Shown here one piece after another: positions 1 through 5,360 of a DNA stretch of 5,360 nt (position 1 is its first letter; each line of letters starts with the position of its first letter). A model generated the notes under the pieces. That model was not told where the DNA came from and ran no database searches. It saw only the letters and a program-made list of their open reading frames with translations. The translations under genes and the position numbers were made by a program. This stretch comes from a virus (lineage: Duplodnaviria > Heunggongvirae > Uroviricota > Caudoviricetes), in IMG/VR virus record IMGVR_UViG_3300022758_000450, one strand, 5' to 3'.

Positions 1-116
1 AGCCATCATCAAAGCCCGAGATCGCGACGTTCGGTTGCCAGCATGATGAGATCGGCATATTTCACGGGTGTACTCATAACTGGTGGTAACCCGTATTTCT
101 CACGGATTACGGCGTT

Positions 117-416
117 CTATTCTTTTTTCTTCCATTCCGATTTATAGTCGAAGGAAGAATGGCAGTTCAGTGGCGCCGGGATGTCCTGGCAATACGCTTC
201 TGTTGCATCATGCATTAACGCTTCAAAAGCAAATTCCTGCGGTACCAGTTGGCTGCAAAGCACCGCATGTTGGGCGACGCTGTAGAAATGTGAAAGATGT
301 CCAGCAAAGCGACAGATATTTGAAAGAGAAACCGCGATATCGTTAATAACGATGTTGTCTTTATCTATCCTGTCATAATAAAAATGCTTCCCGGAAAAAG
401 TTTTAATAAATGACAT
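117..416 (-). CDS. HD-domain phosphohydrolase (YfbR/YfdR-like 5'-deoxynucleotidase family), segment ending at an in-frame TAG
   Basis: Track ORF 117..443 (-). Translation carries the HD-domain metal-binding pattern (AGHLSH, VAQHAV, ALMHDATEAYCQD). Preferred start is ATG at 416 (GGAG 6 nt upstream on the minus strand); the track start at 443 is a GTG with no SD. The same frame stays open past the TAG (117-119) for 35 more codons to tandem TGA-TGA at 6-11. Confidence 0.6.
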   Translation of the reverse strand: MSFIKTFSGKHFYYDRIDKDNIVINDIAVSLSNICRFAGHLSHFYSVAQHAVLCSQLVPQEFAFEALMHDATEAYCQDIPAPLNCHSSFDYKSEWKKKE

Positions 417-540
417 TTTGTTCTCCACGTATATGCACTGCACCGCGCTGAATTCGGGTAAAAGGAAGTCCTCACCGTCCGGCGATTATTGAGTCAATTA
501 CATTTCCATAAATGCCCCCGTAGGGGCGGTTAGTTTCTCC

Positions 541-629
541 ACAAAACAGAGAAGAACACCTGCGGTGGCTGCCGCCCGGATGGATTGGGTTATGAGCCCG
601 TCGTCCGGTGATGCTCTTCTCTGTTTTGT
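541..629. repeat. Perfect 15-bp inverted repeat (ACAAAACAGAGAAGA / TCTTCTCTGTTTTGT) flanking a 59-bp GC-rich core; function unknown
   Basis: Arms 541-555 and 615-629 are exact reverse complements. Lies in a GC-rich stretch (about 472-900) where the track shows only mutually overlapping, low-complexity ORFs on both strands. A GC hairpin (514-527) lies just to the left. Confidence 0.5.
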
Positions 630-1410: not shown

Positions 1411-1497
1411 GACTCAACGAATCACCCTAGACTTTATATGCCCCAGGTGGCTACTTCGTGGGCGTCCTGCCTGTCCGTGATAGCTTACATTATGTTG

Positions 1498-1510
1498 CTA
1501 CTTAAAGTAG
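1498..1510. promoter_or_regulatory. OL-like operator: 13-bp palindrome CTACTT-A-AAGTAG matching the OR operators in 12 of 13 positions
   Basis: Perfect dyad around a central A. Its reverse complement CTACTTTAAGTAG differs by 1 nt from the twice-repeated CTATTTTAAGTAG at 3728-3763. On the minus strand it is followed directly by a near-consensus -10 (CATAAT, plus coordinates 1489-1494) upstream of the ORF starting at 1410. The -35 is weak. Confidence 0.55.
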
Positions 1511-1517
1511 TAAAAAT

Positions 1518-1546
1518 CAACAACAAAAAGTAGATATTTGTTGTTG
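1518..1546. repeat. 10-bp perfect inverted repeat (CAACAACAAA / TTTGTTGTTG) with a 9-bp spacer containing an AAGTAG operator half-site
   Basis: Arms 1518-1527 and 1537-1546 are exact reverse complements. The half-site AAGTAG (1528-1533) sits 23 bp from the matching half of the 1498-1510 operator, the same phasing as the two OR operators. Confidence 0.4.
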
Positions 1547-1691
1547 TCTATGATTTTTCTATAATTAATTGAAAGTTAAATGTTTTTGCTGATTTACTAT
1601 GCTGTAAACTGAAAATATCGCACGAAGTTGGAGTAGGTATTGAGCATAGTGAATTATGAGGAGGGAGTTTTTTATGAGATTAATCAGGGAG

Positions 1692-1724
1692 AAAGAAGAG
1701 TAAAGCCCGGTTATGCGGCCGGGC
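1692..1724 (-). terminator. Intrinsic terminator ending the minus-strand cI-side cassette
   Basis: On the minus strand, immediately after the stop at 1732-1734: GC stem GCCCGG/CCGGGC (1705-1710 with 1719-1724), 8-nt loop, then T-rich tract TTTACTCTTCTTTC (plus coordinates 1692-1704). Confidence 0.6.
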
Positions 1725-1731
1725 ACATGCA

Positions 1732-1983
1732 TTACTTTGTAAGTTCTAGAACTCGTTGAGCCAGCCCTTTAAATTGTTCGTTAAAGGCGTCTCTGCTTGA
1801 TTTCATTGTATTTAAGGCATGCCCAAATTGCCCTGAATCGCGAATTTGCTGATCACTGATGGAGAAAACAGGTGTCGCTAGTTGTTGGCTTATTGCGATT
1901 AATGAGTTGAAATCGGAAATATGCGCAAGATCATAGGCTGATAAATCTCCACTGACTGTTGTTTTGTTAATTGCATGTTGCAC
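1732..1983 (-). CDS. Hypothetical small protein (83 aa), distal gene of the ParA-like cassette
   Basis: Track ORF with GTG start at 1983, placed 1 nt after the TAA (1985-1987) that closes the ParA-like reading frame, which suggests coupled translation. Followed by the terminator. No recognisable motif. Confidence 0.5.
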   Translation of the reverse strand: MQHAINKTTVSGDLSAYDLAHISDFNSLIAISQQLATPVFSISDQQIRDSGQFGHALNTMKSSRDAFNEQFKGLAQRVLELTK

Positions 1984-1984
1984 T

Positions 1985-2815
1985 TTATCTCGTGGAATTA
2001 TGCAGGTAATTTTTTTCTAGATTTGGCACTAAGATCGAATCAACAGCATCACGGATAGCTGCCATCCATTTTTCGAAAGATTTTACAGGTGCTCCTTTAC
2101 GCGGCCTGTATCTCTGCTGAATCATACCTAGAAACTGCGGTGCATTTTTTAATTGATTGTGAAGAGTTACCATCATTATTTTCTTTAAATAATGCTAATT
2201 CTTTGTGCCAGCGAGGTATATTTTTTTGAGAGAGAGCGAATTGCTTGCCAGCAAAAAAAGTCTGGAGCTACAGGTACGATAAAATAGTCACTTGACATGA
2301 GAACTACTTCATTTAAACCTCCAACATTAGGGCTGAGATCATAAAGAATGTAATCAATATTATTCTTCATGGCGATTAGCTGTAATATTTTTTGGCAGGT
2401 TCCCTGGTATATTTTCTTGTAGCAGGAATACCAGCAGCAATTTTTTAGAGAAACACTTATCTGTGAATCTAAGTCCGAAACATCTAAATGTCCGGGAAGA
2501 AGCAGAAGGTTTTTCATGCAGTGTAGGGTGTAATTTTCCCGTTTCTTTTTCAAGGTATGCTTCAGGTTGTCCGCCATTAATCAAATATTCTACAATAGGT
2601 CCAAGAGTTAAGTTATCTCTGCTAGAATAAAAAGAATCTAAACCCTCATCAATCTTTTCATAGCCAAGAACCATTCCTGTTAGATTACATTGCGAATCAA
2701 GGTCAACCATCAATACTTTCTTGCCTTCATCCGCAAGTGCCCATCCAAGATTGAAGGTTGTTGTGGTTTTACTTACCCCACCTTTATGATTAAAAAAACA
2801 AATTGATTTTGTCAT
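1985..2815 (-). pseudogene. ParA/Soj/MinD-family P-loop ATPase gene, reading frame broken twice (+1 then -1)
   Basis: Track ORF 2360..2815 gives the N-terminus with deviant Walker A (MTKSICFFNHKGGVSKTTTTFNLGWALADEGKKVLMVDLDSQ). ORF 2185..2577, in another frame, gives the Walker B region (IDYILYDLSPNVGGLNEVVLMSSDYFIVPVAPDFF), closely matching Soj YDYIIIDSPPALGPL...IIPIQCEFF. ORF 1985..2176 is back in the first frame and resembles a ParA C-terminal region. Total span is about 277 codons, typical for Soj-type ParA. AAGGA lies 9 nt upstream of the ATG at 2815. Confidence 0.7.
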
Positions 2816-2984
2816 GTTTCTCTATCCTTTCGACCCCCAGCATATTGTAATTTACGCTGGGTGATTATTTTATATTGTTAATAATAATGTTTAATAAAAA
2901 TAAGAGAGTAAAACAACTATTAGTAATAGCACTTGCTTGCTAAATATTATTTTTTACCTTTAGTTCTATAGTCTAAACGAAGAA

Positions 2985-3746
2985 CTAAAGCCGGTTGTAT
3001 TTAATTGATTCGTGTATCAATGCTTTGCCCATAACATAAAGTTGATCTTGGGACTTCTCATCAATGTACCATTTCTCATAGGCTGGATTATCCGAAAGAA
3101 CGGCGAGTTTGTTGCCTTGCATTTGTAGACGTTTAACGTGGAACGTCTTACCATAAACGAAAGAGTAAACACCATCAGTTTGGAAGTTGCGAACAGAAAT
3201 GTCGACAAACAGTCGATCTCCGGAAACTAGAGTAGGGGACATGCTGTCGCCATTTACAGTCATAACTTTAATATCATCTTGAGAACGATTACCGAAAAGA
3301 GAACGGGCATGCTCTGTTGTGAACTCAATGGCGTAGAGCACATCAACATAGTCTGAAAGCATATAGGTCCCAGGTCCTGCGCTAACGCTAAGATCCAAAA
3401 CTTCTATCCTGTATACATCGGGTTTTGTTGGATTGGGGATGCTTGCCATTTCCTTACATCCTTCTCTCTCACCAACACCATATTCTAAATATGAAGCTGA
3501 TACCCCCAGAGCCAATGCAAGTTTATTCATGACAGAGGCACGAGGCTTCGCAGCGCCGATTGTGTATCGCCGCGCCATTTCATATGTAACGCCCACAAGA
3601 CTTTTGAGTTGGGTGACAGAAATTCCCTTGTTTGTCATTAGCTCGTTTAGTCTCTTGGCGAAATCTGGATACTTCTGTTCTTCTACCATAGGTAGAAGAT
3701 TACTCGCATCACATACGCTAGTCATTTCTATTTTAAGTAGTTGCAT
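2985..3746 (-). CDS. cI: CI-type phage repressor: N-terminal HTH (XRE family) plus C-terminal LexA-like S24 autopeptidase domain
   Basis: Track ORF. HTH segment FAKRLNELMTNKGISVTQLKSLVGVTYEMARRY; probable Ala-Gly cleavage site in LSVSAGPG; catalytic Ser in VNGDSMSPTL and Lys in HVKRL. Divergent from the cro-like gene with operators between. Start is ambiguous (ATG at 3746, 3725 or 3689); none has an SD, consistent with a leaderless PRM-type transcript. Confidence 0.88.
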   Translation of the reverse strand: MQLLKIEMTSVCDASNLLPMVEEQKYPDFAKRLNELMTNKGISVTQLKSLVGVTYEMARRYTIGAAKPRASVMNKLALALGVSASYLEYGVGEREGCKEMASIPNPTKPDVYRIEVLDLSVSAGPGTYMLSDYVDVLYAIEFTTEHARSLFGNRSQDDIKVMTVNGDSMSPTLVSGDRLFVDISVRNFQTDGVYSFVYGKTFHVKRLQMQGNKLAVLSDNPAYEKWYIDEKSQDQLYVMGKALIHESIKYNRL

Positions 3747-3787
3747 TTTGCTATTTTAAGTAGCATCATCCCTCTGAATTTCAGAGG
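3728..3787. promoter_or_regulatory. OR region: two identical 13-bp operators (3728-3740, 3751-3763) and a perfect 17-bp palindrome (3771-3787) between the divergent cI and cro starts
   Basis: CTATTTTAAGTAG occurs twice with 23-bp centre-to-centre spacing. Each copy is an imperfect dyad (10 of 13) and carries TAAAAT on the minus strand, a -10-like hexamer a few nt from the cI ATG candidates. CCTCTGAA-T-TTCAGAGG (3771-3787) is a perfect palindrome centred 22 bp from operator 2 and overlaps the cro SD. Confidence 0.6.
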
Positions 3788-3795
3788 AGAAAGGT

Positions 3796-4059
3796 ATGTC
3801 ATCTCAAAACTACACAGAGAAAGCAGTAAAAGCTGCGGGAAAATCTTTATCTGAAGTAGCCCGTCACTTTGGTTTTAAGTCCACTCAATCCGTCGCTAAT
3901 TGGGTAATTAACAATCAAGTCCCGTCAGAACGGGTTTTACAACTTTGTGAGTTGGGAAACTGGTCCGTGACCCCTCATGAACTGCGTCCTGATATTTACC
4001 CCAATCCAAATGATGGATTACCTGAGTGCTATTCAAAAGTTAGCGGTTCAGCTGCGTAA
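3796..4059 (+). CDS. cro: Cro-like small HTH regulator (YdaS-type Cro/CI family)
   Basis: ATG at 3796 with GAGGAG (3784-3789) 6 nt upstream. 87-aa protein with HTH segment KSLSEVARHFGFKSTQSVANWV. Divergent from the repressor gene across the operator region. Confidence 0.8.
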   Translation: MSSQNYTEKAVKAAGKSLSEVARHFGFKSTQSVANWVINNQVPSERVLQLCELGNWSVTPHELRPDIYPNPNDGLPECYSKVSGSAA

Positions 4060-4087
4060 ACGTAACCACAGAAACGAGGAGTTAACC

Positions 4088-4645
4088 GTGGGTAAGCATC
4101 ACTGGAAAGTAGAAAAACAGCCTGAGTGGTACGTGAAAGCAGTCAGAAAAACTATCGCAGCGTTGCCGGGGGGTTACGCTGAAGCTGCTGACTGGCTGGA
4201 CGTAACAGAGAACGCATTATTTAACCGCCTTCGTGCCGATGGCGATCAGATTTTCCCGCTGGGATGGGCAATGATTTTGCAACGTGCTGGTGGAACTCAC
4301 TTCATTGCTGACGCTGTGGCGCAGTCTGCAAATGGCATCTTTGTGTCTCTTCCTGACGTCGAGGATGTGGACAATGCCGATATTAACCAGCGTCTGCTGG
4401 AAGTCATTGAACAGATCGGCAGTTATTCCAGACAGATTCGTTCAGCAATTGAAGACGGTGTAGTGGAACCGCATGAGAAGACAGCAATTAACGACGAGCT
4501 GTATCTCTCAATTTCGAAGCTGCAGGAGCATGCAGCACTTGTCTACAAAATTTTTTGCATTTCAGAAAGTAATGACGCCCGCGAGTGTGCAGCTCCGGGC
4601 GTCGTGGCGTCGATTGCTTCTGGTTGTGGAGAAACTAACGCATGA
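4088..4645 (+). CDS. CII-like / YdaT-family early regulator (185 aa from GTG start)
   Basis: Track ORF 3977..4645. Preferred start is GTG at 4088, same frame, with GAGGAG (4076-4081) 6 nt upstream and no overlap with cro. Position (directly after cro, before the replication gene) and size match the YdaS-YdaT arrangement recalled from Rac-type prophages. Stop TGA overlaps the next ATG (ATGA at 4642-4645). Confidence 0.65.
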
Positions 4646-4980
4646 ACAGTTTAACAACACACTACCGTCGCTCGCAACTGATTGCGCTTCCTGTACCGGG
4701 TGGAAAAGCGAAGGTGGAATATTGCTATGCAGTAAATGTACCAGGTGACAGGGAAATTGTAACCCACAGCTTTGCAGAGTGGGCTGTGGGGGATTTCAAC
4801 CGGCAGAAGGAGACAGTCCTTTGCGACAAGTTAACCGCTGGTTCAAAGATCACTACGGAGTGCCCGTCAGAGTCATTCGTTGGGAGCCGGAAACACAACG
4901 GGTTATCTACCTCCGCGAAGGTTATGAGCATGAATGCTTCAGTCCGCTCGAACAGTTTCGTCGTAAATTCAGGGAAATAG
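4642..4980 (+). CDS. Hypothetical small protein; reading frame ambiguous (alternative frame 4779..5000), possibly frameshifted
   Basis: ATG at 4642 is coupled to the upstream stop (ATGA), with GGAG about 11 nt upstream. The first ~55 residues look protein-like, but the C-terminal third is S/T/N-rich. The overlapping frame 4779..5000 (GTG start, no SD) looks more protein-like downstream of about 4800 and ends 8 nt past the O-like ATG. Confidence 0.35.
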
Positions 4981-4989
4981 AGGTCGGTC

Positions 4990-5360
4990 ATGAGCACTAA
5001 ATTAACCGGCTATGTATGGGATGGTTGCGCAGCGTCAGGCATGAAATTATCCAGCGTGGCAATTATGGCCCGCCTGGCTGATTTCAGTAATGACGAAGGT
5101 GTGTGCTGGCCATCAATTGAAACCATTGCCCGTCAGATTGGCGCGGGGATGAGTACCGTCAGGACGGCTATCGCACGGCTGGAAGCAGAAGGCTGGTTAA
5201 CGCGTAAGGCGCGTCGCCAGGGTAACCGCAATGCGTCGAATGTTTATCAGCTTAACGTTGCGAAGCTTCAGGCAGCGGCATTTTCTCAACTGTCAGATTC
5301 TGACCCGTCAAAATCTGACGCATCAAAATCTGACCCGTCAAAATTTGATGCGTCGAGTCG
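4990..5360 (+). CDS. Phage replication initiator, O-like, N-terminal HTH DNA-binding domain (5' partial; continues beyond window)
   Basis: ATG at 4990 with AGAGG 6 nt upstream. N-terminus MSTKLTGYVWDGCAASGMKLSSVAIMARLADFSNDEGVCWPSIETIARQIGAGMSTVRTAIARLEAEGWL is the winged-helix N-domain typical of lambdoid prophage replication proteins (recalled as Rac YdaU-like), followed by a repetitive SDPSKSD linker. No stop before the window ends. Confidence 0.85.
   Translation, partial: MSTKLTGYVWDGCAASGMKLSSVAIMARLADFSNDEGVCWPSIETIARQIGAGMSTVRTAIARLEAEGWLTRKARRQGNRNASNVYQLNVAKLQAAAFSQLSDSDPSKSDASKSDPSKFDASS
5299..5360. repeat. Iteron-like 15-bp tandem direct repeats inside the replication initiator gene (candidate origin); array runs off the window
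   Basis: TCTGACCCGTCAAAA (5299-5313), TCTGACGCATCAAAA (5314-5328), TCTGACCCGTCAAAA (5329-5343), then a degenerate TTTGATGCGTCGAGT (5344-5358). Each unit has an internal dyad TGAC-NNN-TCA. Confidence 0.6.

What the first reader, a model, noticed from the sequence alone, without database searches (positions are those of the whole stretch)
2185..2583. ParA-like gene is split by two compensating frameshifts at tightly constrained positions
Seen in sequence: Walker A is in one frame (2815-2360), the Walker B region is in the +1 frame (2577-2185), and the C-terminal part is back in the original frame (2176-1985). The first shift must lie between 2363 and 2580 and most plausibly within 2511-2551 (minus-strand text gaaaaagaaacgggaaaatt, an A-rich homopolymer context). 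The second shift is confined to 2188-2194, because the first frame has a TAG at 2195-2197 and the middle frame stops at 2185-2187. Two opposite single-nucleotide shifts about 340 nt apart restore the frame. This fits homopolymer sequencing errors or real decay; programmed recoding is unlikely but cannot be excluded.
Basis: seen in the sequence. Interest (0 to 1): 0.5.

Follow-up and report, generated by a model that had tools for sequence, protein, structure and literature searches.

The report
Sequencing-error frameshifts in prophage ParA gene
A well-known E. coli prophage ParA-like ATPase gene looks broken here because seven extra bases sit in short runs of one letter, a pattern that most likely reflects sequencing errors in a low-coverage metagenome contig, so the finding is ordinary.

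Summary
The anatomy is different from what was described. Compared with the intact 358-aa gene (WP_000167381.1, found in 109 complete E. coli genomes), the window has seven frameshifts, not two. All go the same way: each is one extra T on the + strand (an extra A on the coding strand) in a T run, at 2010-16, 2145-50, 2221-27, 2388-93, 2412-15, 2441-46 and 2510-14. The gene runs 2815->1732 in eight frame segments. Removing one T per run gives a protein 100% identical to the reference, with no substitutions. The extra bases are specific to one strand (7 of 15 T runs, 0 of 10 A runs, including an untouched A7). They become more frequent with run length and all lie within 505 bp. A second messy error cluster sits at the contig end (1-165). 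The window is a singleton 5,360-bp JGI/IMG metagenome contig. None of 20 relatives compared base by base has any of the seven insertions, and none of the 109 genome matches is more than 99.4% identical. Best explanation: homopolymer overcalls from single-read, one-strand coverage. Real decay is unlikely and programmed recoding is effectively excluded. Interest is low.

The parts
1732..2815 (-). Whole ParA/MinD-family ATPase gene. It is 1084 nt here and 1077 nt (358 aa) when intact. Here it is broken into 8 frame segments.
   Evidence: In one search, deleting 7 Ts gives a protein 100% identical to WP_000167381.1. Pfam AAA_31 scores 103 bits against a cut-off of 27. phrog_164 'ParA-like partition protein' matches at 9e-52.
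2510..2514 (-). Insertion 1: T5 here, T4 in all relatives (coding strand A4->A5). Frame goes from coordinate mod 1 to mod 0.
2441..2446 (-). Insertion 2: T6 here, T5 in relatives. Frame goes from mod 0 to mod 2.
2412..2415 (-). Insertion 3: T4 here, T3 in relatives. Frame goes from mod 2 to mod 1.
2388..2393 (-). Insertion 4: T6 here, T5 in relatives. Frame goes from mod 1 to mod 0.
2221..2227 (-). Insertion 5: T7 here, T6 in relatives. Frame goes from mod 0 to mod 2.
2145..2150 (-). Insertion 6: T6 here, T5 in relatives. Frame goes from mod 2 to mod 1.
2010..2016 (-). Insertion 7: T7 here, T6 in relatives. Frame goes from mod 1 to mod 0, and the last 92 residues follow in ORF 1732..1983.
   Evidence: The same run also carries -1 or +1 in three other public assemblies.
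2253..2259 (.). A7 run on the + strand, in the middle of the error cluster and unchanged. It is the key evidence that the insertions are strand- and base-specific.
2950..2955 (.). Intergenic T run that is one base shorter here: T6, against T7 in most relatives and T8 in L010. It may be natural variation or an error.
1..165 (.). Second error cluster at the contig end: 10 inserted bases plus G->T and C->T changes compared with every relative examined. It disrupts the yfdR (5'-deoxynucleotidase) reading frame.
2985..3746 (-). cI-like repressor (HTH plus S24 peptidase), immediately upstream of the ParA-like gene on the same strand. This is context only. RefSeq annotates a 234-aa form of this gene starting at 3692.

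Best explanation
The apparent split of the ParA-like gene is a sequencing or assembly artefact. The window is a whole, low-coverage 5,360-bp metagenome contig. A stretch of about 505-570 bp (2010-2514) was probably covered by a single read, or by reads of one orientation only. In that stretch the base caller overcalled the length of runs of one nucleotide by one base (A as read on the gene's sense strand, T on the + strand). The biological gene in the sampled E. coli prophage is almost certainly the intact, already catalogued 358-aa ParA/MinD-family ATPase.

Shown: the number, position, direction, strand specificity, run-length dependence and uniqueness of the insertions, and the second error cluster at the contig end.

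Inferred: the platform. A flow-based chemistry such as 454 or Ion Torrent, or a poor single-pass read, is the most likely type.
For: 1. All seven differences from the intact allele are +1 in a T run, and there are no substitutions across 1700-2960 against EC93. Removing them gives a protein 100% identical to WP_000167381.1.
2. The insertions are base- and strand-specific. In 2000-2520, 7 of 15 T runs (reference length >=3) are extended against 0 of 10 A runs, including an untouched A7 at 2253-2259. Fisher p = 0.02.
3. The proportion extended rises with reference run length: T3 1/6, T4 1/3, T5 3/4, T6 2/2. This is what a signal inflated by about 10-12% for one nucleotide would give (inference).
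4. The footprint is the size of a read. All seven lie within 505 bp and are bounded by unaffected T runs at 1962-65 and 2534-37. Outside it, 0 of 71 T runs is lengthened.
5. A second, messier error cluster sits at the contig end, 1-165.
6. The contig is a singleton. The 151-aa fragment is on record once, from JGI/IMG, on one contig of 5,360 bp. The two-insertion pattern is absent from genome, viral and metagenome collections.
7. All 20 relatives compared base by base have the reference run lengths at all seven sites. No complete-genome match among the 109 exceeds 99.4% identity.
8. The profile matches published pyrosequencing assembly errors: >97% in homopolymer runs, >95% of those in A/T runs, about 79% insertions, no substitutions, errors concentrated in small regions, and extra errors at contig ends (PMC1564139). 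Homopolymer indels are known to cause frameshifts in metagenomic genes (PMC3115854).
Against: The sequencing platform and read coverage of the contig are unknown, because the source record could not be retrieved. If the contig came from deep Illumina data, seven homopolymer overcalls would be hard to explain as error. Runs as short as T3 and T4 are affected, which is unusual for well-calibrated flow sequencing. One reference-T5 run inside the cluster (2069-2073) is unaffected. Single frameshifts in this gene do occur in other public assemblies, so natural inactivation of this gene is not unheard of.
Confidence: 0.88

Rival explanations
1. It is a real pseudogene. The E. coli prophage in the sampled community truly carries seven +1 homopolymer insertions, for example after growth of a mismatch-repair-deficient mutator lineage or a local 'mutation shower'. 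The ParA-like gene would then be dead.
For: Homopolymer slippage is a real mutational route. Other assemblies carry single indels or nonsense changes in this same gene, recurrently at the A6 run (gene nt 794-799) and the T7 run (nt 553-559). The gene is an accessory prophage gene that can presumably be lost.
Against: There are seven indels and no substitutions in about 1.26 kb, whereas decay or mutator spectra give many base substitutions. After the first frameshift the others would be neutral, yet they are confined to 505 bp, with 0 of 71 T runs lengthened elsewhere. The strand asymmetry is absolute: both A7 runs, the most slippage-prone tracts in the gene, are untouched while T3 and T4 runs are hit. 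No other sequence shares the allele. An unrelated error cluster at the contig end points to poor data.
Confidence: 0.1
2. It is programmed recoding: the gene is expressed through ribosomal frameshifting or transcriptional slippage at the A runs.
For: A runs on the sense strand are the sort of sequence at which RNA polymerase or ribosomes can slip. IS1 in a neighbouring genome shows a programmed frameshift, but that is an unrelated gene.
Against: Seven successive -1 corrections would all be needed, so the yield would be negligible. The runs are only 4-7 nt and no stimulatory structure was found. The defining test fails: homologues do not conserve the shifts. The 20 relatives compared base by base encode one uninterrupted 358-aa frame with the reference run lengths, and all 109 genome matches are 7 bases shorter and annotated as a single ParA family protein.
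Confidence: 0.005
3. It is phase variation: a contingency locus in which run-length changes switch the gene on and off.
For: The A6 and T7 tracts of this gene vary by +/-1 in a few other assemblies.
Against: Contingency loci use one long tract, usually >=8 nt, that varies between close relatives. Here the tracts are 3-7 nt, seven change at once, and the 20 relatives compared base by base are uniform at all seven sites, with no genome match above 99.4% identity.
Confidence: 0.015

Closest known systems
WP_000167381.1, 'ParA family protein' of E. coli lambdoid (CPS-53/e14-like, yfd/ymf-gene) prophages, e.g. EC93 H8529_RS18225 and IHE3034 ECOK1_RS02690
   Same: After removing the seven extra Ts, the nucleotide sequence matches EC93 with no substitutions and the protein is 100% identical. 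The neighbourhood is the same: cI-like repressor upstream, then cro-like, ymfL, DUF4222 and O-like genes beyond.
   Different: Only the seven +1 homopolymer insertions differ, plus one -1 in the upstream intergenic T run.
Homopolymer-length errors of flow-based sequencing (454 GS20/FLX, Ion Torrent) in low-coverage assemblies
   Same: The errors are restricted to A/T homopolymer runs, mostly insertions, with no substitutions. They cluster in small regions and there are extra errors at the contig end. They create frameshifted gene fragments in metagenomes (PMC1564139; PMC3115854).
   Different: The platform of this contig is unknown. Runs as short as 3-4 nt are affected, and the errors hit only one of the two complementary run types. 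That pattern needs single-orientation, probably single-read, coverage.
ParA/Soj/MinD deviant-Walker-A ATPases (Pfam AAA_31/CbiA); closest solved relative PDB 3pg5, an uncharacterized 361-aa protein
   Same: It has the deviant Walker A KGGVSKTT at residues 11-18 and a Walker B-type hhhhD motif (YILYDLSP). AAA_31 matches over residues 3-204.
   Different: No NCBIfam equivalog model (ParA_partition, RepA, SopA, MinD) reaches its cut-off; only the P-loop region matches. The window has no adjacent ParB or centromere-binding gene. The C-terminal ~150 residues match no Pfam family at E<=0.01.
Lambda rexA-rexB slot (accessory genes co-transcribed with cI inside the immunity region)
   Same: The ParA-like gene lies directly downstream of the cI-like repressor on the same strand. 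It sits between operator-like repeats at 1495-1510 and 3725-3763, has a lower G+C (0.36 against about 0.5), and is followed by a terminator-like hairpin.
   Different: There is no sequence relationship to RexA or RexB. Any exclusion or defence role is untested. PADLOC gives only weak P-loop-level hits to PDC-M28B.

Membership tests
ParA/MinD superfamily (deviant Walker A P-loop ATPases) | Deviant Walker A motif xKGGxxK[ST] near the N-terminus | tested here: met
   KGGVSKTT at residues 11-18, encoded in window ORF 2360..2815.
ParA/MinD superfamily (deviant Walker A P-loop ATPases) | Profile match above the curated threshold (Pfam AAA_31 / CbiA) | tested here: met
   For the repaired/intact protein, AAA_31 scores 103.1 bits (cut-off 27) and CbiA 52.9 bits (cut-off 25.4). 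phrog_164 matches at 9e-52.
Bona fide partition ParA (type Ia/Ib parABS system) | Adjacent parB/centromere-binding gene and parS site; match to an equivalog model | tested here: not met
   No ParB-like gene lies next to it in the window or in annotated relatives. NCBIfam ParA_partition scores 55.8 bits against a cut-off of 180, and the RepA, SopA and MinD models are all far below their cut-offs.
Programmed ribosomal frameshift / transcriptional-slippage gene | The frameshift is conserved in homologues, i.e. homologues also need the shift | tested here: not met
   The 109 complete genomes are annotated with a single ParA family protein and their matches are 7 bases shorter. The 11 IMG/VR contigs and 5 metagenome contigs have the reference run lengths.
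Programmed ribosomal frameshift / transcriptional-slippage gene | A single slippery site with a stimulatory element that gives a defined product | tested here: not met
   Seven separate shifts in runs of 4-7 nt would all have to be corrected.
Phase-variable contingency locus | A long homopolymer or SSR tract whose length varies among close relatives | tested here: not met
   The tracts are 3-7 nt. All 20 relatives compared base by base are uniform at the seven sites. Only isolated +/-1 events occur at two tracts in a few assemblies.
Decaying pseudogene | A mixed spectrum of substitutions and indels on both strands, shared by a lineage | tested here: not met
   0 substitutions against 7 indels. 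All indels are in one run type on one strand, and the allele is a singleton.
Homopolymer sequencing artefact | Indels only in homopolymer runs, dependent on run length, specific to a strand or read, local in extent, and absent from independent sequences | tested here: met
   A second error cluster lies at the contig end.
Homopolymer sequencing artefact | Low coverage or low base quality at the affected positions in the raw reads | not testable with these tools
   The source record and reads could not be retrieved.

The most novel reading that the evidence does not exclude
The seven insertions are real and were produced by a strand-specific process confined to the transcription unit, which lengthens sense-strand A runs by one. 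One example would be a slippage-prone transcript of the ParA-like gene being reverse-transcribed and recombined back into the prophage. Another would be a highly asymmetric local slippage 'shower'. Nothing here supports such a process beyond the strand specificity and locality of the changes, and single-read sequencing error explains both more simply.
Probability: 0.02. Interest if true: 0.6.

Novelty: not a real feature. Interest (0 to 1): 0.05.

Why it matters
The main value is quality control. The apparent multi-frame ParA gene should not be counted as a recoding candidate or as a pseudogene. The contig should be flagged as carrying local homopolymer and contig-end errors. The case also shows that placing frameshifts by looking at only two of the three frames can give falsely 'tight' positions. 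The underlying intact gene is an orphan ParA-like ATPase in the rexAB-equivalent slot next to the prophage repressor. That gene is mildly interesting as a candidate lysogen-expressed accessory gene, but it is already catalogued and is not what the finding was about.

Tried and rejected
- Finding the source record or another copy of the frameshifted allele. An exact-protein look-up of the fragments found nothing. Exact DNA scans with a 45-mer spanning two insertions found nothing in genome contigs, viral contigs or metagenome contigs. The only trace is one JGI/IMG entry on a contig of 5,360 bp, which is the window itself.
- The phage GenBank collection had no near match to the ParA region.
- Rfam found no RNA family in the window, so there is no known frameshift stimulator or sRNA.
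- PADLOC gave only weak P-loop-level hits, so no defence-system assignment was made.
- Nanopore or PacBio consensus error was considered as the artefact type and judged less likely. Such consensus errors would be expected to affect A and T runs alike and to be spread along the contig. This rests on my own knowledge and was not tested.
- The clustering p-value uses a window chosen after seeing the data, so it is optimistic.

Full report
**What the window is.** The ORF list and comparison with annotated genomes show the immunity and early region of an E. coli lambdoid prophage.
- On the minus strand: a cI-like HTH/S24 repressor (2985-3746) followed by a ParA-family gene.
- On the plus strand: a cro-like gene (3796-4059), ymfL (4088-4645), a DUF4222 gene and an O-like replication gene with iteron-like repeats.
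- At the left end: yfdR and small ORFs.
- An exact-sequence look-up found the 151-aa N-terminal ParA fragment once in about 15 billion proteins, from JGI/IMG, on a single contig of length 5,360. The window is therefore a complete metagenome contig.

**Checking the observation.** The first ORF carries the deviant Walker A KGGVSKTT and the second carries a Walker B-type motif (YILYDLSP).

**What is really there.** A megablast of 1700-2900 found 109 complete E. coli genomes. In each of the 30 listed, the 1,201-base query matches 1,194 bases under a single annotated 'ParA family protein', and no match among the 109 exceeds 99.4% identity.

Alignment to EC93 and IHE3034 shows that the only differences inside the gene are seven single-base insertions. 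Each is one extra A on the coding strand (T on the + strand) in a homopolymer run: 2510-14, 2441-46, 2412-15, 2388-93, 2221-27, 2145-50 and 2010-16. Deleting one T from each run restores a 1,077-nt ORF whose product is 100% identical to WP_000167381.1, 358 aa.

The true reading path has eight segments:

| Window coordinates | Residues | Frame (coordinate mod 3) |
|---|---|---|
| 2815-2511 | 1-102 | 1 |
| 2509-2442 | 102-125 | 0 |
| 2440-2413 | 125-134 | 2 |
| 2411-2389 | 134-142 | 1 |
| 2387-2222 | 142-197 | 0 |
| 2220-2146 | 197-222 | 2 |
| 2144-2011 | 222-267 | 1 |
| 2009-1732 | 267-358 | 0 |

The middle-to-first frame transition consists of two +1 insertions with a 75-nt passage through the third frame. 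The gene continues past 1985 into ORF 1732..1983.

**Is it real or an artefact?** Several independent features point to an artefact.
1. *Mutation spectrum.* There are seven indels and no substitutions across 1700-2960 against EC93.
2. *Base and strand specificity.* Within 2000-2520, 7 of 15 T runs (reference length >=3) are lengthened against 0 of 10 A runs. An A7 at 2253-2259 in the middle of the cluster is untouched, as is a second A7 at 2792-2798 (Fisher p = 0.02). In double-stranded DNA in vivo, an A run and a T run are the same object read from opposite strands. Such absolute asymmetry, sparing the longest tracts, fits a read-level chemistry effect far better than replication slippage.
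3. *Length dependence.* Reference T3 1/6, T4 1/3, T5 3/4 and T6 2/2 are lengthened. This is what a roughly 10-12% inflation of one nucleotide's signal would give after rounding (inference).
4. *Footprint.* All seven lie within 505 bp, bounded by unaffected T runs at 1962-65 and 2534-37. Outside 2000-2520, none of the 71 T runs in the aligned 1416-5356 region is lengthened (the interval was chosen after seeing the data). That footprint is the size of one read.
5. *Second error cluster.* At the contig end (1-165), ten inserted bases plus G->T and C->T changes within G runs separate the window from every relative examined. They break the yfdR frame.
6. *Uniqueness.* A 45-mer spanning two of the insertions is absent from genome contigs, viral contigs and metagenome contigs. 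The corresponding intact 43-mer occurs in 11 IMG/VR contigs, and five more metagenome contigs carry the gene. All 20 relatives compared base by base have the reference run lengths at all seven sites.
7. *Match to published errors.* Pyrosequencing assemblies show >97% of errors in homopolymer runs, >95% of those in A/T runs, about 79% insertions, no substitutions, concentration of errors in small regions, and extra errors near contig ends (PMC1564139). Such indels are a recognised cause of frameshifted gene fragments in metagenomes (PMC3115854).

The platform of this contig is not known to me, so the assignment to a flow-type or poor single-pass read is an inference.

**Rivals.**
- *Real decay (about 0.10)* is not excluded without reads. 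Other public assemblies do carry single inactivating changes in this gene. Among them are -1 (L017, L024) or +1 (L018) at the A6 run that corresponds to 2010-2016, and +/-1 at the T7 run that corresponds to 2253-2259. But a neutral pile-up of seven same-direction, same-base insertions within 505 bp, with no substitutions and none elsewhere, is not what decay or a mutator lineage produces.
- *Programmed recoding* fails its defining test, because homologues do not need any shift. It would also require seven corrections in sequence.
- *Phase variation* fails because the tracts are short, relatives are uniform, and seven tracts change together.

**Comparison with known systems.** The intact protein is a ParA/MinD-superfamily ATPase. 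AAA_31 scores 103 bits, CbiA matches, and phrog_164 'ParA-like partition protein' matches. The closest solved relative is the uncharacterized 3pg5. It is not shown to be a partition ParA: there is no neighbouring ParB, and every NCBIfam equivalog model is far below its cut-off, with only the P-loop matching.

The gene sits directly downstream of the repressor gene on the same strand. It lies between operator-like repeats (1495-1510; 3725-3740 and 3748-3763), has a low G+C, and is followed by a terminator-like hairpin at 1724-1705. This is the slot that rexAB occupies in lambda (own knowledge). That is a positional analogy only. PADLOC gives no convincing defence assignment.

**Verdict.** The frame pattern is really in the sequence, but it reflects seven +1 homopolymer overcalls in a singleton low-quality metagenome contig. 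The gene behind it is an already catalogued, normally intact prophage ParA-like ATPase. Novelty: not a real feature. Interest: 0.05. Confidence in the artefact explanation is about 0.88. Raw reads of the source metagenome would settle it.

Noticed in passing
window 1-165: A cluster of 10 inserted bases plus G->T and C->T changes compared with every relative examined. It disrupts the yfdR (5'-deoxynucleotidase) frame, and ORF 117-443 (minus) stops early. It looks like low-quality sequence at a contig end.
   Followed up: partly
window 1495-1510, 3725-3740, 3748-3763: Operator-like 16-nt near-palindromic repeats (TTGCTAYTTWAAGTAG) lie on both sides of the cI-like plus ParA-like block. This places the ParA-like gene inside the immunity region, in the slot rexAB occupies in lambda. 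The gene has a low G+C (0.36) and is followed by a terminator-like hairpin at 1724-1705 (-).
   Followed up: partly
L017, L018, L024 (gene nt 794-799 and 553-559; equivalent to window 2010-2016 and 2253-2259): Other public E. coli assemblies carry single +/-1 indels at the A6 and T7 tracts of the same ParA-like gene, and some carry nonsense or other truncations (L019, L020, L023). It is unclear whether these are real inactivations or sequencing errors in those assemblies.
   Followed up: partly
window 2950-2955: The intergenic T run upstream of the ParA-like gene is T6 here, T7 in most relatives and T8 in L010. It may be naturally length-variable and lies near promoter-like hexamers (2975-2946, minus strand).
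   Followed up: no
window 541-565 / 605-629: A 25-nt inverted repeat (84% complementary, 39-nt spacer) lies in a region that RefSeq annotates as a 'frameshifted hypothetical protein' in related prophages. There is no Rfam match.
   Followed up: no
window 5278-5352: Four 15-nt-spaced direct repeats (TCAAAATCTGACSCR-like) inside the O-like replication gene. They look like origin iterons, as in lambda ori.
   Followed up: no
window 529-544 / 4624-4639: A perfect 16-nt inverted repeat (GTTAGTTTCTCCACAA / TTGTGGAGAAACTAAC) with arms about 4.1 kb apart. It may be chance; it was not examined.
   Followed up: no
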